Assembly: GCA_964501135.1 (NCBI GenBank)
Contig: CAZCRI010000001.1
Coordinates: 192,393-256,392, forward strand
Reading direction: 5' to 3'
Length of the DNA stretch: 64,000 nt
DNA from: an uncultured Candidatus Saccharibacteria bacterium
GTDB taxonomy: Bacteria; Patescibacteriota; CPR2; UBA1875; CAIMLA01
Below the pieces are notes generated by a model. That model did no database searches. It was not told the origin of the DNA and saw only the letters and a program-made list of their open reading frames with translations. Positions 12,632 to 63,787 of this stretch are shown piece by piece (positions within the stretch are counted from its first letter, which is position 1; every line of letters begins with the position of its first letter). Both the position numbers and the translations under genes were made by a program.

Positions 12632-12787
12632 ATGAAAGTAACCAAAGGTAGGGGGATTCAGTTCTTTAAACAGCCTTTCTTTAGTAATCACAAGAAGTAT
12701 TTTGCCGAGATTTATAAGAGTGGTAGGCAGGGAATTGGGAATGTCTTTAGTTTTACAAGTAAACAAAATAAGGAGAAGAAGAAGTGA
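12632..12787 (+). CDS. Possible small Lys-rich ORF (51 aa) translationally coupled to mscL
   Basis: AGGAG RBS 7 nt upstream. The stop TGA overlaps the mscL GTG start (GTGA). No homology recognisable, so it may be a non-coding leader. Confidence 0.25.
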   Translation: MKVTKGRGIQFFKQPFFSNHKKYFAEIYKSGRQGIGNVFSFTSKQNKEKKK

Positions 12788-13086
12788 AAGGATTCGTTGC
12801 ATTTATTAGGGAGCAAGGAGTAGTAGGTCTGGCGGTTGGTTTTATCCTAGGAGGTGCGGTTTCTAAATTAGTGGCGTCATTTGTCTCCGATATTGTTGGG
12901 CCTTTTCTTTCGGTGATTCTTGGTGTCGGTGGCGGAATTGCGGGCGCCAAATTTACCCTAGCTTCGGTGGTGGTTCCGTATGGTAGTTTCCTGGCAACTC
13001 TCATTGATTTTTTGGTCGTTGCGGCAGTCGTCTATTTTGGTGTCAAACTACTTCGCTTGGATAACTTAGACAAGAAGCCAGAGTAG
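12784..13086 (+). CDS. mscL: Large-conductance mechanosensitive channel
   Basis: FIREQGVVGLAVGFILGGAVSKLVASFVSDIV matches the MscL N-terminus and TM1. A second TM and a charged C-terminal helix follow. 100 aa. Confidence 0.85.
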   Translation: MKGFVAFIREQGVVGLAVGFILGGAVSKLVASFVSDIVGPFLSVILGVGGGIAGAKFTLASVVVPYGSFLATLIDFLVVAAVVYFGVKLLRLDNLDKKPE

Positions 13087-13553
13087 TGGAAGAGCGCCAC
13101 CTTACCTTGGCCGTAATAGAGCGAGAAGGGAAGTTGCTTCTTGGCCTCAAGAAACGGGGTTATGCCGAAGGTGTTTGGAATGGTTATGGTGGCAAGGTGG
13201 AGAAGGGTGAGAGTGTCGAAGATGCAATGGCACGGGAGCTACTGGAAGAATCTTCACTCCAAGCATTACGGATGGAAAAGGTTGGCCATCTTGAGTTTAC
13301 CTCAAACATTGAGGATGAAATTTCTATTTGTCACCTATTTTTAATTCATGAGTACCTAGGTGAGCCGGTGGAAACCGAGGAGATGCGACCGCAGTGGTTT
13401 AGTGTTGACTCGCTACCTTATGATCAAATGTGGCCGGACGATCCGTATTGGATACCACTGGTACTTTCCGGAAAAAAAGTCCGAGGCAGTTTTGTGCTGC
13501 GAGATAACAAGACCGTCGAGAAGCATTCCCTTACCGAGGTGGACTCGTTCTAG
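13086..13553 (+). CDS. NUDIX hydrolase (MutT-like)
   Basis: Nudix box GGKVEKGESVEDAMARELLEESSL. Confidence 0.7.
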   Translation: MEERHLTLAVIEREGKLLLGLKKRGYAEGVWNGYGGKVEKGESVEDAMARELLEESSLQALRMEKVGHLEFTSNIEDEISICHLFLIHEYLGEPVETEEMRPQWFSVDSLPYDQMWPDDPYWIPLVLSGKKVRGSFVLRDNKTVEKHSLTEVDSF

Positions 13554-13559
13554 GGCTTT

Positions 13560-13568
13560 TGATATAAT
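13560..13568 (+). promoter_or_regulatory. Extended -10 element (TGaTATAAT) upstream of the ferric-reductase-like gene
   Basis: ttTGaTATAAT at 13558-13568. No clear -35. Confidence 0.3.
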
Positions 13569-13591
13569 TGGCGGACTACTTGGAGGGATTC

Positions 13592-14248
13592 ATGGAATTT
13601 TTAAAGAAATATCGTTTTGATTTGCTTGTCCTAGGGGTCGTCATATTGATTCCTATTTTTACTTGGGCCACTATGAGGCCGCTGACCAGTCGTTTCGATT
13701 CAGTTATGATGATTCTTACTAGCATTGGGCAGCTGACAGCGCTACTAGGGACGGTGCTAGTGGCAATTTCGATGATTTTTCAGATCAAGCTTTGCCGATA
13801 TTTTAGGTTTTTGTCAAAACCGACTACGGGACTCAATATCCATCACTACACCGGCTTTTGGGGTTTATTACTTTTGATGGTTCATCCGCTGGTTTTGGCG
13901 GCGAGAATGTTGCCAACATCCCTACAATCTGCCTTTAGTTTTCTCTACACAACCCAGCTGACAAACCTGATTGGGTTAGTTGCTATGATTGTCATGATTC
14001 TCTCTATGTATACCGCTCTATTTTTGGAGCGAAGTTTCCGTTTTTGGAAACTATTGCACCAAATAATGCTCGTGGCTTACTTGGGTATCCTTTATCACAC
14101 GATATTCGTATATAGCGACACTAGCAATAGCGCCTTCCTAAAGGGGTATCTCTTGGGCTTGTTACTTTTGGGCGGTATTATGTTTTCGATTCAAAAAATA
14201 CAAGGCTATCTATGGCCAAAGGCAACTAGAAATGAAGATTCTTGCTAG
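13592..14248 (+). CDS. Ferric-reductase-like transmembrane heme-binding domain protein (MsrQ/YedZ-like, 6 TM, no flavin domain)
   Basis: HHYTGFWGLLLLMVHP (His-x13-His) and HQIMLVAYLGILYH (His-x12-His) in two TM helices, the bis-heme ligand spacing of the ferric reductase / NOX / MsrQ family. GGAGGG RBS before the ATG at 13592. The longer ORF starts at TTG 13568. Confidence 0.6.
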   Translation: MEFLKKYRFDLLVLGVVILIPIFTWATMRPLTSRFDSVMMILTSIGQLTALLGTVLVAISMIFQIKLCRYFRFLSKPTTGLNIHHYTGFWGLLLLMVHPLVLAARMLPTSLQSAFSFLYTTQLTNLIGLVAMIVMILSMYTALFLERSFRFWKLLHQIMLVAYLGILYHTIFVYSDTSNSAFLKGYLLGLLLLGGIMFSIQKIQGYLWPKATRNEDSC

Positions 14249-14540
14249 TTTTACAATTTTTGTTTTTGCGGTTTTGATTGGCAGTACGCTTCTGGCTAGT
14301 GGAATCTTGGAACGCTTTGGGAATGTCCGTAAACTTACCGAAGTAACTAGGATTCACGAGGAGAAAGAGGCTGCAGTTCGAAAAGAGGCGGCAACTACTA
14401 GTCAAAGCACCGGTACAAATGCCGGCTCACAAGCCGTCTCTGGAAATACAACGGCGCCGGTGGTCCAGTCCACAAAAAGCACGGTAGTAAACAATGACAC
14501 CGAGGAAGATGAAGATAACGAAGAGGAGAATGATGACTAA
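14232..14540 (+). CDS. Hypothetical membrane-anchored protein with S/T-rich linker and acidic tail
   Basis: N-terminal hydrophobic segment ILASFTIFVFAVLIGSTLLASG, then low-complexity S/T/Q, then an EEDEDNEEENDD tail. Overlaps neighbouring genes at both ends. Confidence 0.4.
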   Translation: MKILASFTIFVFAVLIGSTLLASGILERFGNVRKLTEVTRIHEEKEAAVRKEAATTSQSTGTNAGSQAVSGNTTAPVVQSTKSTVVNNDTEEDEDNEEENDD

Positions 14541-15033
14541 AAAATGGACCAAAATAGTATTTGTGATTAGCCTCTATCTTTTTTGTGTAGCTTTTGCCGG
14601 AGTTGGTGTTGCCTACCTTTTCGATAAGAGCATCACGCAGAAAACCGTAAAGACGGTGACAAAAAAAGTGACCGAGGAAGTTCCGGCAGCGGCAACAAAC
14701 TCTACGGCGACGGATACAAGCACAGCGTCATCTGGTAACACGACGTCTTCGTCTTCGGCAAACACTGGTTCAAATACAGCCACTTCTACAAATCAAACAC
14801 CGACAACTACTACTCTAACCGCTGCTTTGGTTGCTCAGCATAACACCTCGGGAAATTGTTGGATTATTTTATCTGGCTATGTCTACAATATTTCTTCTTA
14901 CTCTCATTCAGGCGGGGCCAGTCATATCGGTTGTGGTACTGATCAGACAGCAGCGATACATGCCAAGCATGGTAGTCAGTATGATTCATATTTTAGTTCC
15001 TTTGGGGTAGGAGCACTCGGGTCTCAAATTTAA
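14530..15033 (+). CDS. Membrane-anchored cytochrome b5-like heme-binding domain protein 1
   Basis: TM anchor IVFVISLYLFCVAFAGVGVAYL, an S/T-rich linker, then LVAQHNTSGNCWIILSGYVYNISSYSHSGG, which resembles the b5 core (HN..+.CW..i.G.VYDVT.+..HPGG). Confidence 0.5.
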   Translation: MMTKKWTKIVFVISLYLFCVAFAGVGVAYLFDKSITQKTVKTVTKKVTEEVPAAATNSTATDTSTASSGNTTSSSSANTGSNTATSTNQTPTTTTLTAALVAQHNTSGNCWIILSGYVYNISSYSHSGGASHIGCGTDQTAAIHAKHGSQYDSYFSSFGVGALGSQI

Positions 15034-15092
15034 ATTTTCTCAGCGCAATCTCAGCTTATTCTTTGAAAATAGGCTTTATAAAGGAGAGAATC

Positions 15093-15491
15093 ATGTCAAA
15101 CACTTTAAAAGCCTTATTTATCGCTGTGGTTACAGTCGTAATAATCGTTTTGGTTGGTTTTGGGATTTATCAGTCGGGGAAGAGTACCGGGACAAGCGGT
15201 GCCAGTACTTCTCAAGCCACCTCGACAAATACACAGTCGACGGCGAGTACAGCTAGTACTACCCAGAGCATACAGACGGTTACAGCGGCGCAGCTAGCAA
15301 CGCATAGTAGCTCGGGTTCTGATTGTTGGGTGGCCATTAACGGCGGCGTTTATGATGTCACGAATTATAGCCATCCTAAGCTAGATCCCTTTACTTGCGG
15401 AGCAGATAATACCAGTGGTTGGGATAGTGTTAGCAGGCACTCGACATCCTTGCTAGACTTGGTAGAATATATGGGTAAGCTAGTAAACTAA
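15093..15491 (+). CDS. Membrane-anchored cytochrome b5-like heme-binding domain protein 2
   Basis: AGGAG RBS. TM anchor ALFIAVVTVVIIVLVGFGIY, an S/T-rich linker, then LATHSSSGSDCWVAINGGVYDVTNYSHP, a b5-like core. Confidence 0.5.
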   Translation: MSNTLKALFIAVVTVVIIVLVGFGIYQSGKSTGTSGASTSQATSTNTQSTASTASTTQSIQTVTAAQLATHSSSGSDCWVAINGGVYDVTNYSHPKLDPFTCGADNTSGWDSVSRHSTSLLDLVEYMGKLVN

Positions 15492-15500
15492 GGAGCAAAA

Positions 15501-15776
15501 ATGAGCGAACATGGAAACTTTACTGCCGATGAGGCACAGAGAATTGGCGAAGTCCTAGGTATCGATTGGAGTAAGTGGGACGTGGAGCAGTTTCGGATGG
15601 GGATGGATGTAGAGCTCGAGCACGGCAGTGTGGATCCACACACCAATGTTACCGATAATGATCCGTTGCTCACTGGCAAGATTGCCCTTGCTCACCTAAA
15701 TGAGATTCCTGATTATTACACTCGCCTGGCCGCGATGGAAGAGGAAGGCGAAGCCTACTGGGACGCCCAAAAATAG
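15501..15776 (+). CDS. Conserved hypothetical protein, DUF5661-like
   Basis: FRMGMDVELEHG...KIALAHLNEIPDYYTRL resembles the DUF5661 family pattern as recalled from memory, not database-verified. Confidence 0.4.
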   Translation: MSEHGNFTADEAQRIGEVLGIDWSKWDVEQFRMGMDVELEHGSVDPHTNVTDNDPLLTGKIALAHLNEIPDYYTRLAAMEEEGEAYWDAQK

Positions 15777-15830: not shown

Positions 15831-15889
15831 ATATTAGAAATACTTCGCCCGTAAGTGGTAAAATAATCCTAATGAAGAACGGAGGAACT

Positions 15890-16402
15890 ATGAAAGCGTT
15901 CATGCCAGAACTAGTAAAACTACTTGACCGAAATATGGTCACTGTTACCTCGTATGGTGACCCGAATATGGTAATGGAGCCGTATATGAAAGCTCTCTAT
16001 GGTGGCGTTTACTCAGCGAAAATGGGAGTCTATAAACCACTGGGAATTAAGATGGAGCTTGGAAAACTTACGGCTATGTGGCCTGATGCCCACCTGAAGC
16101 CAAAGAGTGAGTAGACGGGAATCTGGGCGGTACCGGTGCCTGACTATGTGAAGCAAGGGGATATTACCCAAAAGGACCCAGAGAAACCTGTAAAAGTTGA
16201 GGTCTGGCCTGGTGGCACTTATGCTCAGATATTACACCTTGGTGGTTATGTCGAAGAAGCTCCCACGATTGCAACCCTTCATAAATTTATCGAGGAACAG
16301 GGCATAGAAATGAAGGATGTCATCGGTTTACACGAAGAAGAGTATCTGACTAAGCCAGATGCCAAGGTGGTAAAAACCATTATTCGATATCGGATAAAAT
16401 GA
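15890..16402 (+). pseudogene. GyrI-like (AraC effector-binding / SbmC-like) small-molecule-binding domain gene interrupted by an in-frame TAG at 16112-16114
   Basis: ORFs 15872-16114 and 16136-16402 are in the same frame, separated only by TAG plus 21 nt. The second half, GGTYAQILHLGGYVEE...TLHKFIEEQGIEMKDVIGLHEEEYLT, matches the GyrI-like fold, and the domain needs both halves. GGAGG RBS before the ATG at 15890. Confidence 0.45.
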
Positions 16403-17305: not shown

Positions 17306-17326
17306 TCAGAGAAACTCATAATTACT

Positions 17327-17353
17327 AAAAAAGCGGCAGTAAGCCGCTTTTTT
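17327..17353 (+). terminator. Rho-independent terminator
   Basis: GCGGC-agtaa-GCCGC followed by TTTTTT. Confidence 0.75.
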
Positions 17354-17363
17354 AGTAAAAGTG

Positions 17364-17391
17364 TTGACAAAAATAGAGAAAGGTGTATAAT
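17364..17391 (+). promoter_or_regulatory. Consensus sigma70 promoter, TTGACA-16nt-TATAAT, reading into GC-rich cassette 3
   Basis: TTGACA at 17364-17369, TATAAT at 17386-17391. Confidence 0.55.
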
Positions 17392-17478
17392 AATCGGATA
17401 GTTCACAAAGAACATCGCACCGCGGCCAAGAGTCGCATACAATCCACGTACAATGCCTAGGAGGCTGCTGTGAAACGT

Positions 17479-17616
17479 ACTATCTTGGATGATTACTTCC
17501 AGGAACGCCTGAAGGTGTTTCTTGGAGCGCTCTACTTCATCGGTCTCTTCCTCTATTTCATCGGGGAAGCGCTTGTAGAGGACGCGATGCGTCCTTTCCA
17601 GCTGTAGTCCAGCGGG
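17479..17616 (+). CDS. Possible small hydrophobic peptide (45 aa, GTG start) in GC-rich cassette 3
   Basis: Perfect AGGAGG 6 nt before the GTG. VKRTILDDYFQERLKVFLGALYFIGLFLYFIGEALVEDAMRPFQL carries one hydrophobic helix. Speculative. Confidence 0.25.
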
Positions 17617-18088
17617 GACAAAAGGCTCTTAGGGCCCCGTAGACACCGTAGCCGGACGGATTCCGGATGTTCCCTTCATGACGAAGGGTCGAGCAAGGAG
17701 GTATCTCCATGAAGATCGCTCGCACTGCAGTCGCCGTTCGCGGCACCCCGGTCGTCAGCTCGTCCATCCTTATGAGTTCTGAATTCGGCATCCGCGGCGC
17801 GCGCGCCGGCACCGGGCCGCACAACTAGGGCCCGGTCGTCTCGCTTCGGGTAGCAACTCCTCAGGCGGGGAGATCCGAAGCGTCAGCACTAGCCTCGCGT
17901 TTCTGACCAGGAATCCTCTCGCGAGGTTGCTCTAACAGCTTGTGCTAAAATGTACGTGGAAATGGGGTCGGGACGATCACACATGGCCGCGCCAAAGGCG
18001 CCGCGTAGTGTTGGCCGTACCGGCCCTTCTCCTTTTAAGGATACGATGTATACTTGTTTCTTTGCCTTCGGCAATCTAGAATATCTAT

Positions 18089-60829: not shown

Positions 60830-62288
<1,459 letters not shown>

Positions 62289-62488
62289 CTAAGGAGTAAG
62301 ATGTTGTTTATTCAACAATCTAGGCCGAATCGAGACTTACGTATGTTAGATATACCCTCAGGGTTGATAATATATTAAATTATCTTGAAGGTTTGGTTCC
62401 CTGTTCTGCTATTATTCGGCTGTCAAAAGTCGGCAAGAGACTCCACTTCGGTGGTGTTTTTTGTTTCTATAAAGTAAGATTGAGTGTG

Positions 62489-63208
62489 ATGAAGATAGAA
62501 GCCATAAAAACTGAGATTATCACCCCTTCCTCTATTTCGCTGGAAGCATTTTTGGATAAGTACATTACTGAACTTCACGAGGAAGTTATTGTCGTATTCT
62601 CGTCAAAAGTAATATCGCTCATCGAGGGCAGGGTATCTCGGGAGCTAGAAAAGCGAGAAGAGCTGGTTCGCAAAGAAGCGGATTTTATTTCTCGAGAAGA
62701 GACCAAGAATGCACATCACATAATCATTAAGGAACATGCATTTATCTTTGGCGCTGGCATTGACCTTTCAAATGCTGCTGGCACCCTGGTTTTGTTACCG
62801 GAGAACGCGATGCAAACTGCCCGAGAGATACAACAATATTTGGCTAACAAATTTAAGTTAAAGCAGTTTGGGGTAATTATTTCGGACAGTAGGTCGTTGC
62901 CGCTTCGCAGAGGCACCGTTGGCGTTGCCCTCGGGTTTAGCGGGTTCTCCCCACTCTTGGATTATCGCGGAACCCCGGATATTTTCGGTAGGAACTTTGA
63001 AGTAGAGGTTTCGAACATCGTTGATTCCATAGCAATTGCCGCGAATTTGGCGATGGGCGAGGGCACAGAACAGACGCCGATAGCTGTGGTTTCTGCCGTG
63101 CCTTCCGTTAAGTGGGACGACTCCTTCCCCACCGAGGAACAGCTGAATGAGCTCTTCTTGGATCTAGAGGAAGACCTCTTCTATCCTTTTTATAAAAACA
63201 TATTTTGA
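62489..63208 (+). CDS. CofE-family protein (F420-0:gamma-glutamyl ligase-like)
   Basis: VIVVFSSKVISLIEGRV, GAGIDLSNA, VIISDSRSLPLRRGTVGVALGFSG and FGRNFEVEVSNIVDSIAIAANLAMGEGTEQTPIAVV align block by block with archaeal CofE. Start taken at MKIEAIK. Confidence 0.8.
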   Translation: MKIEAIKTEIITPSSISLEAFLDKYITELHEEVIVVFSSKVISLIEGRVSRELEKREELVRKEADFISREETKNAHHIIIKEHAFIFGAGIDLSNAAGTLVLLPENAMQTAREIQQYLANKFKLKQFGVIISDSRSLPLRRGTVGVALGFSGFSPLLDYRGTPDIFGRNFEVEVSNIVDSIAIAANLAMGEGTEQTPIAVVSAVPSVKWDDSFPTEEQLNELFLDLEEDLFYPFYKNIF

Positions 63209-63217
63209 GGTGAGACC

Positions 63218-63787
63218 ATGAAAGACATTGAGATTGAAATTCAGGTACGTGTTCAAAACGTAAAACCGCTTATCGAGAGGTTGGAACGCGAGGGAACCTT
63301 CGTTTTGGATGATCACCAGAAGGACGAGTACTTTACACCCCTACATCGTGATTTCTTTAGTAAAAAGCCAATAGATGAATGGCTACGAGTACGTGAATCA
63401 GGAAAGAATTCTATCACCTACAAGAATTGGCACCATCGAGAAGATGGAAAATCTAATCATTGCGATGAATATGAAACAGAGGTTGTTAGTCCCGAACAGG
63501 TGAGAAATATCTTTCGCGTTCTAGACATTGAGCCACGGATTGTTGTAGATAAACACCGACGTAGCTGGAACCATGGCAAATACGAGGTATCAATTGACGA
63601 GATAAAGGGGTTGGGTACTTTCGTGGAAGTAGAATATAAAGCAGCAGGTTTAGTAGACCCCGACCAAGTTGCTCGGGAAATGATTGAATATTTAAAAGAG
63701 ATAGGGGTCGGAAAGATTGAGATGAACTATGTTGGGTATCCATATCTCATACTCTATGGCACAGAGGGATATTTTCAAGAAGTTTAG
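63218..63787 (+). CDS. CYTH-domain protein (class IV adenylyl cyclase / triphosphate tunnel metalloenzyme-like)
   Basis: N-terminal EIEIQVRV (ExExK-type start), then the CYTH-like ...GTFVEVEYK end. Confidence 0.7.
   Translation: MKDIEIEIQVRVQNVKPLIERLEREGTFVLDDHQKDEYFTPLHRDFFSKKPIDEWLRVRESGKNSITYKNWHHREDGKSNHCDEYETEVVSPEQVRNIFRVLDIEPRIVVDKHRRSWNHGKYEVSIDEIKGLGTFVEVEYKAAGLVDPDQVAREMIEYLKEIGVGKIEMNYVGYPYLILYGTEGYFQEV

What the first reader, a model, noticed from the sequence alone, without database searches (positions are those of the whole stretch)
13560..15491. Putative extracytoplasmic heme electron-transfer module: a ferric-reductase-like bis-heme membrane protein plus two anchored cytochrome b5-like proteins
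The 219-aa membrane protein has His-x13-His and His-x12-His pairs in two TM helices. This is exactly the ferric reductase / NOX / MsrQ heme-ligand spacing, and it lacks any FAD/NAD(P) domain. Immediately downstream and overlapping are two genes encoding an N-terminal TM anchor, a long S/T-rich (likely glycosylated) linker, and a C-terminal cytochrome b5-like core (HN..CW...G.VYDVT..SH). CPR bacteria generally lack respiratory chains and heme biosynthesis. A surface-exposed b-type heme relay here would be unexpected. Possible roles are heme scavenging from a host, surface redox defence, or reductive iron uptake.
Basis: partly seen in the sequence, partly recalled or inferred. Interest (0 to 1): 0.7.

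Follow-up and report, generated by a model that had tools for sequence, protein, structure and literature searches.

The report
Membrane heme conduit with tethered cytochromes b5
A four-gene cassette encodes a two-heme membrane protein related to bacterial NADPH oxidase but without its NAD(P)H-binding half, plus outward-facing cytochrome b5 proteins on flexible stalks. It is real, but the gene pairing has already been reported in about 185 candidate-phyla-radiation genomes and its function is still unknown.

Summary
Window 13592-15491 (+) is a compact cassette of four genes.

- **No dehydrogenase half:** most relatives are ~430-aa NOX-like enzymes with FAD/NADPH domains. This clade lacks them, and no such domain occurs in the 64-kb window.
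- **b5 domains:** both pass PF00173. They are closest to the bacterial cytochrome b558 (1CXY) and keep both axial His and two Cys.
- **Pairing:** a b5 gene lies next to the FRD gene in every informative b5-type locus, down to 26% FRD identity, including full-length NOX-like relatives. One more distant short form pairs with ApbE instead.
- **Likely mechanism:** electrons move outward through two membrane hemes to the tethered cytochromes. Both donor and final acceptor are unknown; ferric iron is my best guess for the acceptor.
- **Novelty:** Tamarit et al. (bioRxiv 2021) already reported this pairing in 185 CPR genomes.
- **New here:** the SpNOX kinship, the acidic-tail partner, and evidence that the cassette was swapped or evolved very fast between close relatives.
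- **Untested:** CPR origin and heme auxotrophy could not be verified.

The parts
13540..13568 (+). Promoter-like site (TGGACT-17 nt-TATAAT, with TG before the -10) just upstream of the FRD ribosome-binding site GGAGGG (13581-13586)
   Evidence: This is a consensus match only: 8 sites were found in the region against 6.3 expected from shuffles. Sequence read. It lies in the 38-nt gap after the NUDIX stop codon (13553).
13592..14248 (+). Stand-alone ferric-reductase-domain (FRD) protein of 218 aa with six TM helices. Predicted inner-heme ligands are H84 + H156 (codons at 13841 and 14057). Predicted outer-heme ligands are H98 + H169 (codons at 13883 and 14096). It has no FAD/NAD(P)H domain.
14232..14540 (+). 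Small 102-aa protein: N-terminal TM anchor, conserved juxtamembrane motif RFGNVRKLTEVTRIH, S/T-rich linker and acidic C-terminal tail (11 D/E in the last 15 residues). It overlaps the FRD gene by 17 nt and b5-A by 8 nt.
   Evidence: No Pfam family. The TM anchor and juxtamembrane motif are conserved in three other contigs, and the acidic tail in the two that reach the C-terminus (A5). A more divergent copy (27-31% identity) is in L017. In other lineages a similar acidic tail is fused to the C-terminus of the b5 protein: P0010 and P0011 and L015.
14533..15033 (+). b5-A, 166 aa: basic N-terminus plus TM anchor (about residues 4-31), S/T-rich linker of about 65 aa, and a C-terminal cytochrome b5 domain. 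Predicted axial ligands H125 and H146. Conserved Cys C109 and C134.
   Evidence: PF00173 at 39.9 bits, cut-off 23.7. Profile against PDB: 1CXY at E 3.4e-17 with His and Cys aligned. Conservation across 24 FRD-adjacent b5 domains. Hydropathy and composition. Residue positions.
15093..15491 (+). b5-B, 132 aa, a paralogue of b5-A (about 29-38% identity): TM anchor, S/T-rich linker of about 35 aa, and a b5 domain. Predicted ligands H94 and H116. Cys C78 and C102. Present in the window and in L001/L002; absent from L004 and L017.
   Evidence: PF00173 at 31.8 bits; only the N-terminal half of the Pfam model aligns. The full domain aligns to the family-specific HMM. Presence and absence in relatives.

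Best explanation
The cassette encodes a heme-based system that carries electrons outward across the cell membrane.

- **The conduit.** The 218-aa protein is the membrane half of a bacterial SpNOX-type NADPH oxidase that has lost, or never had, the FAD/NAD(P)H dehydrogenase half. It should bind two b-type hemes stacked across the membrane: an inner heme on H84/H156 and an outer heme on H98/H169.
- **The donor.** An unidentified cytoplasmic reductant feeds the inner heme. Candidates are a separately encoded flavin reductase or ferredoxin/flavodoxin-type protein, free reduced flavin, or a borrowed quinol.
- **The carriers.** The exposed outer heme reduces the bis-His cytochrome b5 domains of b5-A and b5-B. 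These sit outside the membrane on flexible S/T-rich stalks of about 35-65 residues, probably stabilised by a disulfide.
- **The end acceptor.** The tethered cytochromes then reduce an extracellular acceptor. My best guess is ferric iron for uptake, with the co-conserved acidic-tail protein capturing or presenting cations.

Status of each step:
- Shown by computation: the fold, ligand conservation, domain identities, topology signals and conserved gene pairing.
- Inferred: heme occupancy, direction of electron flow, and the FRD-to-b5 contact.
- Guessed: the donor and the terminal acceptor.
For: **FRD identity**
- PF01794 is above its cut-off.
- The profile hits SpNOX at E 1e-10, with all four His aligned to H69, H83, H129 and H142. 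These are the published heme ligands (PMC11564096).
- The four His are kept in 143-154 of 154 relatives.
- The 14-residue His spacing corresponds to about 21 A of helix rise, matching the 21.5 A Fe-Fe distance reported for SpNOX.

**Direction and partner**
- Of the 150 best representatives, 97 are 400 aa or longer. All 15 of these inspected by motif carry HPFS-type FAD motifs and most carry GIGITP-type NADPH motifs. Electrons therefore enter this family from the cytoplasm.
- Long forms are followed directly by anchored multi-b5 proteins. L008 has a 438-aa enzyme followed by a 942-aa protein with four b5 domains. L015 has a 436-aa enzyme followed by a protein with two b5 domains. L016 has a b5-like gene directly upstream.
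- DH-less relatives at 27-68% identity also have a b5 gene next door.
- SpNOX reduces cytochrome c directly, and its authors propose an unknown protein acceptor.

**b5 domains**
- PF00173 is above its cut-off for both. The best solved relative is bacterial b558 1CXY.
- Both His and both Cys are conserved in 24 FRD-adjacent domains.
- N-terminal anchors: lysine-rich before the b5-A anchor (MTKKWTK), a single lysine before the b5-B anchor.

**Iron hints**
- A Zip transporter lies two genes downstream in L001/L002.
- NifS, NifU and ferredoxin genes lie beside the L016 pair.
- Acidic tails recur on b5 proteins or on the small partner.
- Analogous flavin-based MsrQ-like systems are linked to the VIT1 iron transporter (PMC8238504).
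Against: - No biochemical evidence exists for heme binding or electron transfer in any member.
- No electron donor is identifiable. No dehydrogenase-domain ORF occurs in the 64-kb window or in the flanks of any DH-less locus.
- Ferric reduction by SpNOX is slow and was judged probably not physiological.
- The window, L004 and L017 have no iron transporter next to the cassette.
- The synteny that includes Zip could be inherited rather than functional.
- Whether the organism can obtain heme is unknown.
It is inferred from alignment to SpNOX.
Confidence: 0.55

Rival explanations
1. Same conduit and carriers, but the terminal acceptor is O2. The system would either scavenge oxygen at the surface of an oxygen-sensitive cell or make superoxide/H2O2 for signalling or for attacking a host. 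This would be a true NOX-like function.
For: The closest solved relative is an NADPH oxidase that reduces O2 in vitro. No iron transporter lies next to the cassette in the window, L004 or L017.
Against: A hexacoordinate bis-His b5 reacts poorly with O2 (general knowledge). Adding tethered cytochromes is unnecessary if the exposed FRD heme itself reduces O2. The SpNOX authors themselves doubt that O2 is the physiological acceptor.
Confidence: 0.17
2. The b5 domains are mainly heme-capture or heme-storage receptors of a heme auxotroph. They would act like hemophores on stalks, loosely comparable to NEAT-domain proteins. The FRD would reduce or hand over the captured heme.
For: The domains are outward-facing heme-binding domains on long tethers. 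Tamarit et al. speculate on heme release in related CPR loci. The cassette diverges fast between close relatives, as surface receptors often do.
Against: The domains keep classical bis-His ligation and are closest to an electron-carrier cytochrome. Bis-His b5 holds heme tightly in both redox states (general knowledge). The same b5 proteins follow full NAD(P)H-dependent enzymes, which points to electron flow. No heme transporter is adjacent.
Confidence: 0.1
3. The b5 carriers deliver electrons to an unidentified extracytoplasmic reductase encoded elsewhere, for example a repair enzyme as in MsrPQ, rather than to a small-molecule acceptor.
For: MsrQ-to-MsrP is the precedent for an FRD serving a periplasmic enzyme. 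A more distant DH-less FRD pairs with ApbE, which fits the modular partner use described in PMC8238504.
Against: No candidate reductase is co-conserved with the cassette in five lineages. No MsrP-like gene was found among the window ORFs scanned.
Confidence: 0.08
4. Electron flow is inward. The tethered cytochromes pick up electrons from an external donor (host surface, Fe(II), reduced shuttles) and the FRD passes them to a cytoplasmic acceptor.
For: The DH-less form has no built-in NAD(P)H entry point. Two-heme membrane proteins such as cytochrome b561 work in whichever direction the potentials allow (structural relatives).
Against: Every characterised FRD-family enzyme moves electrons outward. 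The sister long forms have cytoplasmic NAD(P)H domains and the same b5 partners. No cytoplasmic acceptor is evident.
Confidence: 0.05
5. The genes are intact but are not heme proteins in vivo, because the organism has no heme. They would be structural or adhesive surface proteins, or decaying remnants.
For: Heme supply is unverified. No heme-synthesis gene was seen in 64 kb. The cassette sequence evolves fast.
Against: All ligand His and both Cys stay invariant or nearly so across lineages that have otherwise diverged to 26-50% identity. That is the signature of purifying selection on cofactor binding. The reading frames are intact with good ribosome-binding sites.
Confidence: 0.05

Closest known systems
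CPR 'pFre' + cytochrome b5 gene clusters (Tamarit et al., bioRxiv 10.1101/2021.11.17.468889)
   Same: A PF01794 membrane gene lies next to PF00173 genes, and all products are membrane-anchored. The authors counted 185 of 7645 CPR genomes with this pairing within 10 kb, did not see it outside CPR in IMG, and called the function unknown.
   Different: Their focus was the Tyr-ligated, MAPR-like cytb5MY type together with CBLA/CBLB proteins and a two-component system. This cassette has two classical bis-His b5 proteins (clade 2, 1CXY-like), no cytb5MY and no adjacent two-component genes. It also has an anchored acidic-tail protein that they do not describe. In the passages I read, they do not relate pFre to SpNOX or separate DH-less from DH-containing forms.
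SpNOX, the Streptococcus pneumoniae NADPH oxidase (PDB 8qq7; PMC11031084, PMC11564096, PMC5676040)
   Different: SpNOX carries a C-terminal FAD/NAD(P)H dehydrogenase domain, which the window protein lacks entirely. No b5 partner has been described for SpNOX. Sequence identity is only about 17%.
MsrQ (YedZ) of the MsrPQ system
   Same: It is a stand-alone FRD without a fused dehydrogenase. It hands electrons to an extracytoplasmic protein partner and takes them from a separate donor, either the Fre flavin reductase or quinol.
   Different: The MsrQ partner is the molybdoenzyme MsrP, not a cytochrome. No MsrQ-specific NCBIfam model matches the window protein and no MsrP gene is nearby. The window protein sits among NOX-like sequences in the family search.
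ApbE-flavinylated 'MsrQ-like' extracytosolic electron-transfer systems (Meheust et al., eLife 2021, PMC8238504)
   Same: A PF01794 conduit, often with a fused NAD-binding domain, is paired with an anchored extracytosolic one-electron carrier. Some of these systems are linked to ferrous-iron transporters and were proposed to be assimilatory iron reductases. A distant DH-less relative of the window protein lies in such a cluster (L010).
   Different: The carrier there is a covalently flavinylated FMN-binding domain that needs ApbE. Here it is a heme b5 domain, and neither ApbE nor an FMN_bind gene is in the cassette.
Ectothiorhodospira vacuolata cytochrome b558 (PDB 1CXY)
   Same: It is the best solved relative of the b5 domains (E 3.4e-17). 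Both axial His and both Cys align. It is a bacterial extracytoplasmic b5; that it is periplasmic and has a disulfide is my recollection of Kostanjevecki et al. 1999 and was not checked here.
   Different: b558 is a soluble stand-alone protein. The window proteins are membrane-tethered through long S/T-rich linkers and are encoded together with an FRD.
Eukaryotic reductive iron-uptake reductases (FRE/FRO, STEAP, Dcytb/cytochrome b561)
   Same: They are two-heme (one in STEAP) transmembrane electron conduits that reduce extracellular Fe(III) ahead of a transporter. All appear among the structural neighbours.
   Different: They reduce iron directly at the outer heme without tethered cytochromes. 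Their donors (NADPH or ascorbate) are known. There is no sequence-level membership beyond the FRD superfamily, and none at all for b561.

Membership tests
Ferric reductase domain (FRD) superfamily, Pfam PF01794 | Match to the family HMM above the curated gathering score | tested here: met
   31.2 bits against a cut-off of 28, E 2.6e-7, covering 2-119 of 121 model positions.
Ferric reductase domain (FRD) superfamily, Pfam PF01794 | Six TM helices with two His on TM3 (13 residues between them) and two His on TM5 (12 between them) | tested here: met
   H84/H98 and H156/H169. The model has six long helices. The four His are conserved in 143-154 of 154 relatives and align to the SpNOX ligands.
Ferric reductase domain (FRD) superfamily, Pfam PF01794 | Fold of solved FRD proteins | tested here: met
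Ferric reductase domain (FRD) superfamily, Pfam PF01794 | Binds two b-type hemes | not testable with these tools
   Needs spectroscopy.
NOX / SpNOX-type NAD(P)H oxidase | C-terminal FAD-binding (HPF[ST]) and NAD(P)H-binding (GxGxxP) dehydrogenase domain fused to the FRD | tested here: not met
   The protein ends 10-15 residues after TM6. A dehydrogenase-domain HMM finds nothing in the window or in the flanks of DH-less loci. Relatives of about 430 aa do have the domain.
MsrQ (YedZ) of MsrPQ | Match to an MsrQ-specific model and an adjacent msrP (molybdopterin oxidoreductase) gene | tested here: not met
   NCBIfam gives no MsrQ hit at E <= 1. The neighbours are NUDIX, MscL and DUF5661.
Cytochrome b5, Pfam PF00173 (classical bis-His type) | Match to the family HMM above the gathering score | tested here: met
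   b5-A 39.9 bits and b5-B 31.8 bits against a cut-off of 23.7. For b5-B only model positions 1-33 align, but the full domain aligns to the family-specific profile.
Cytochrome b5, Pfam PF00173 (classical bis-His type) | Two axial His: the HPGG-loop His and the second His about 21-24 residues later | tested here: met
   b5-A H125/H146 and b5-B H94/H116. These align with the His of 1CXY, flavocytochrome b2 and microsomal b5. They are kept in 24 FRD-adjacent domains.
Bacterial extracytoplasmic b558-type cytochrome b5 (1CXY) | Cys pair (CW ... CG) and export from the cytoplasm | tested here: met
   Both Cys align with the 1CXY Cys and are invariant. N-terminal hydrophobic anchors are present, lysine-rich upstream in b5-A. 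Disulfide formation itself was not tested.
cytb5MY (MAPR-like, Tyr-ligated CPR b5 of Tamarit et al.) | Tyr heme ligation and clade-1 (MAPR-like) affiliation | tested here: not met
   The ligand positions hold His. The best solved matches are clade-2 proteins (1CXY, b2, microsomal b5).
CPR pFre-cytb5 cluster (Tamarit et al.) | PF01794 gene within 10 kb of a PF00173 gene | tested here: met
   The genes are adjacent or overlapping.
CPR pFre-cytb5 cluster (Tamarit et al.) | Host genome belongs to the Candidate Phyla Radiation | tested here: inconclusive
   No taxonomy could be retrieved. Records are titled only 'MAG: bacterium'. The 16S lacks TM7 probe signatures and matches universal primers. The gene content of the window is compatible with CPR but not diagnostic.
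ApbE-flavinylated MsrQ-like system (Meheust et al.) | [quoted passage not shown] | tested here: not met
   Neither was found in the cassette or among the window ORFs scanned. ApbE is present only in the distant relative L010/L011.

The most novel reading that the evidence does not exclude
The FRD-b5 pairs would reveal the long-sought physiological protein acceptor of bacterial NOX-like enzymes. In this DH-less clade of a reduced, host-dependent bacterium, the module would run on scavenged heme and exchange electrons directly with the host cell surface or its redox shuttles. That would be an episymbiont-host electrical link. The cassette swapping between close relatives would reflect adaptation to different hosts.
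Probability: 0.1. Interest if true: 0.85.

Novelty: new member of a known kind. Interest (0 to 1): 0.5.

Why it matters
Bacterial NOX-like enzymes have solved structures but no known physiological acceptor or role. The consistent pairing of this family with anchored cytochromes b5, both with and without the dehydrogenase half, offers a concrete acceptor that can be tested.

In reduced genomes with no respiratory chain, a heme-dependent outward electron path would mean two things. The cell depends on external heme, and it performs surface redox chemistry such as iron acquisition, oxygen handling or host interaction. Neither is currently included in metabolic reconstructions of such organisms.

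The cassette is unrecognisable at the DNA level between two genomes whose flanking proteins are 76-96% identical. That marks it as a fast-changing surface module worth tracking in population data.

The gene pairing itself is not a new discovery.

Tried and rejected
**Attempts that gave nothing or had to be redone**
- A profile of only the four closest FRD sequences found nothing in the PDB and gave a poor model (pLDDT 65). A 40-sequence alignment fixed both.
- Searching for a separately encoded dehydrogenase partner found none in the window or in related loci.
- Taxonomy could not be established.
  - The TM7-specific probes do not match the 16S.
  - Universal primers match perfectly.
  - 16S identity to E. 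coli is about 78% and uninformative.
  - Cluster look-ups returned no names.
  - The accession prefix is not in the literature library.
  - The afdb50 fold library, which carries organism names, was unavailable.
- The genome-collection scan returned only one relative and the metagenome scan four. The first metagenome attempt, with the 40-sequence alignment, failed for lack of a conserved block.
- Promoter and terminator scans are not above shuffled background.
- I could not confirm the 1CXY disulfide from the library. It is cited from memory only.

**Interpretations rejected**
- MsrQ membership: no NCBIfam hit and no MsrP.
- Defence-system membership: PADLOC gave only weak low-complexity hits.
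- cytb5MY identity: the ligands are His, not Tyr.

**Side check**
- Rfam and tRNA searches of the 17.3-18.1 kb gap were negative.
Full report
**1. What is there**

On the + strand between a NUDIX gene (13086-13553) and a DUF5661 gene (15501-15776) lie four tightly packed genes. Ribosome-binding sites and the NCBI gene calls recovered from the protein collection fix the starts:

| Gene | Coordinates | Length | Start signal |
|---|---|---|---|
| FRD | 13592-14248 | 218 aa | GGAGGG, then ATG |
| Small gene | 14232-14540 | 102 aa | overlaps FRD by 17 nt |
| b5-A | 14533-15033 | 166 aa | GAGGAG, then ATG; overlaps the small gene by 8 nt |
| b5-B | 15093-15491 | 132 aa | AAGGAG, then ATG; 59-nt gap |

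It overlooked that the first downstream gene has no b5 core.

**2. The membrane protein**

- It passes Pfam PF01794 (31.2 bits against 28).
- It has five His in total. H84/H98 are 13 residues apart and H156/H169 are 12 apart.
- An exhaustive HMM search of 1.84 billion representatives found 536 relatives.
  - Of the best 150, 97 are 400 aa or longer. All 15 of these inspected by motif carry HPFS-type FAD motifs and most carry GIGITP-type NADPH motifs, so they are full NOX-like enzymes.
  - 42 are stand-alone forms shorter than 260 aa.
- In a 154-sequence alignment the four His are kept in 147, 154, 143 and 150 sequences.
- With a 40-sequence alignment AlphaFold gave pLDDT 91.9.
- The family profile hits SpNOX at E 1e-10, and the four His align with SpNOX H69, H83, H129 and H142. 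The cryo-EM paper assigns H69 + H129 to the inner heme and H83 + H142 to the outer heme (PMC11564096).
- By homology, the inner heme therefore sits on H84/H156 and the outer heme on H98/H169.
- Basic residues lie in the N-terminus and in the TM2-3 and TM4-5 loops. This puts both termini in the cytoplasm, as in NOX.
- There is no dehydrogenase domain. The protein ends shortly after TM6, and an HMM from 96 dehydrogenase domains finds nothing in any frame of the window or in the flanks of other DH-less loci.
- A rough neighbour-joining tree places the window protein in an all-short clade of about ten 50%-identity clusters, nested among long forms.

**3. The cytochromes b5**

- Both pass PF00173 (39.9 and 31.8 bits against 23.7).
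- A profile of ten relatives hits the bacterial cytochrome b558 of Ectothiorhodospira vacuolata (1CXY) best, at E 3.4e-17. Flavocytochrome b2 and microsomal and mitochondrial b5 follow.
- The HPGG-loop His, the second axial His and two Cys (CW and CG) all align.
- In 24 non-identical b5 domains encoded next to FRD genes, these four positions are essentially invariant.
- The domains are therefore classical bis-His b5 (clade 2 in the scheme of Tamarit et al.), not the Tyr-ligated cytb5MY type.
- Each protein begins with a hydrophobic anchor of about 25 residues, preceded by a lysine-rich stretch in b5-A and a single lysine in b5-B. A linker of up to 65% Ser+Thr follows.
- Anchor orientation and the conserved Cys pair fit an outward-facing domain. 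Glycosylation of the linkers is speculation.

**4. The overlooked small protein**

- The 102-aa product has a TM anchor, a conserved motif RFGNVRKLTEVTRIH, an S/T-rich linker and a tail with 11 acidic residues in the last 15.
- The anchor and motif are conserved at the same position in three other contigs, and the acidic tail in the two that reach the C-terminus. A more divergent copy is in L017.
- In other lineages an equivalent acidic tail ends the b5 protein itself: P0010 and P0011, and SGEDDEDD in L015.
- This fusion pattern argues that the small protein belongs to the same machine. Possible roles are cation capture or docking.

**5. Is the pairing conserved?**

Yes. DH-less relatives:
- L001/L002, 68% identity: FRD, small gene, b5, b5, DUF5661, Zip.
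- L004/L014, 52%: FRD, small gene, one b5.
- L017, 47%: FRD, small gene, one b5.
- L005, 33%: FRD followed by a protein with two b5 domains.
- P0016, 27%: FRD followed by a b5 gene.

Full-length NOX-like relatives:
- L008/L009: a 438-aa enzyme followed by a 942-aa protein with four b5 domains and an SH3 domain. Two response regulators lie upstream.
- L015: a 436-aa enzyme overlapped by a protein with two b5 domains.
- L016: an anchored b5-like gene lies directly upstream of a 424-aa enzyme and beside NifS, NifU and ferredoxin genes.

Other cases:
- Contigs L006, L007, L012 and L013 are too short to judge.
- One more distant DH-less form (P0111) pairs with ApbE instead. This is the flavin-based 'MsrQ-like' system of Meheust et al..

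**6. A fast-changing or swapped cassette**

- L017 (GCA_041738615.1) is the closest genome by its flanks. Protein identities are RmuC 96%, PheS 92-93%, the SprT-like protein 91%, DUF5661 89%, Sua5 85% and NUDIX 76%.
- Its cassette is nevertheless the most divergent: FRD 47%, b5 46%, small protein 31%. It has only one b5 gene.
- blastn finds 71-78% DNA identity on both sides but none across window 13555-15489. That interval runs exactly from the NUDIX stop to the DUF5661 start.
- L001 has more distant flanks (59-83%) but a closer cassette (68/55/50%).
- The cassette tree therefore disagrees with the flank tree. This indicates replacement in place, or very uneven rates. Either would be consistent with a surface-exposed module.

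**7. Mechanism**

*Shown by computation:* the fold, ligand conservation, domain identities, topology signals and conserved adjacency.

*Inferred:*
- Two hemes in the FRD and one in each b5.
- Outward flow, because sister enzymes take electrons from cytoplasmic NAD(P)H and have the same b5 partners.
- Transfer from the exposed outer heme to the tethered b5. SpNOX reduces cytochrome c directly, and its authors suspect an unknown protein acceptor.

*Unknown:*
- The donor for the DH-less form.
- The final acceptor. I favour Fe(III). The hints are Zip in L001/L002, Fe-S assembly genes in L016, the acidic tails, and VIT1-linked analogues. The case is weak: SpNOX is a poor ferric reductase, and most loci have no transporter.

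**8. Comparison with the literature**

- Tamarit et al. (bioRxiv 2021) found PF01794 in 1427 of 7645 CPR genomes. In 185 of these a PF00173 gene lay within 10 kb. They did not see the pairing outside CPR in IMG and proposed a membrane complex of unknown, CPR-specific function.
- No later or experimental work turned up in the library.
- The module is therefore a further member of a described but uncharacterised kind.
- The premise that a heme relay is surprising in a heme-less organism is weakened by that paper. It is further weakened by my recollection that S. pneumoniae, the source of SpNOX, is itself a heme auxotroph; I did not check this here.
- I could not confirm that this window is CPR.

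**9. Verdict**

This is a real, coherent and well-supported heme electron-transfer cassette. The novelty claim is not upheld. Interest is moderate.

Noticed in passing
window 17306-18088: A terminator hairpin (17326-17353) is followed by a near-consensus promoter, TTGACA-17-TATAAT (17365-17393). About 700 nt of locally G+C-rich sequence with no long ORF follow. The region is conserved in relative L017 (73% nt identity, promoter identical). A 45-aa hydrophobic ORF (17470-17607) is conserved in frame with many synonymous changes. A 39-aa ORF (17709-17828) is partly conserved. The G+C-rich tail shows apparent compensatory changes. No Rfam, tRNA/tmRNA or PADLOC match was found. L004 has no such gap: RmuC follows GyrI-like after about 50 nt.
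   Followed up: partly
window 15872-16402: The GyrI-like gene is split into two ORFs (15872-16114 and 16136-16402). It is a single 170-171-aa ORF in L001, L004 and L017. This is either a pseudogene or an assembly error.
   Followed up: partly
window 60830-62288: A complete 16S rRNA gene has no tRNA or 23S after it. A CofE-like F420-0:gamma-glutamyl ligase homologue (62393-63208) and a CYTH protein (63218-63787) follow instead, so the 16S appears unlinked. No tRNA gene occurs anywhere in the 64 kb.
   Followed up: no
window 25254-47547: Two giant proteins (3016 and 2740 aa) carry fn3 and purple-acid-phosphatase-N-like repeats. Next come a 143-aa ORF, an 820-aa protein with coupling-protein/HerA-like ATPase matches (TrwB_AAD_bind, DUF87), and a 676-aa protein with no family. 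This could be a surface or secretion apparatus. The first giant gene is also present in L017.
   Followed up: no
window 12784-13086; L001, L004 and L017: MscL sits upstream of the cassette in the window, between Ogt and NUDIX, and directly upstream of the FRD gene in L004. It is missing at that place in L001/L002 and L017. This is a small insertion/deletion at the cassette border.
   Followed up: no
L001 8282-9013 and L002 3617-4348: A Zip-family (PF02535) metal transporter is inserted between DUF5661 and GyrI-like in this lineage only, two genes downstream of the b5 genes. It is the only transporter link to the cassette.
   Followed up: partly
L008 5323-8151 and L009 2421-5249: A 942-aa protein with four cytochrome b5 domains and a bacterial SH3 domain directly follows a full-length NOX-like enzyme. 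Two response-regulator genes lie upstream. This is a much larger version of the same system.
   Followed up: partly
L016 1107-5161: An anchored b5-like gene and a full-length NOX-like gene lie beside divergently transcribed cysteine desulfurase (NifS-like), NifU-like scaffold and small ferredoxin genes. This hints at a link to iron or Fe-S supply.
   Followed up: no
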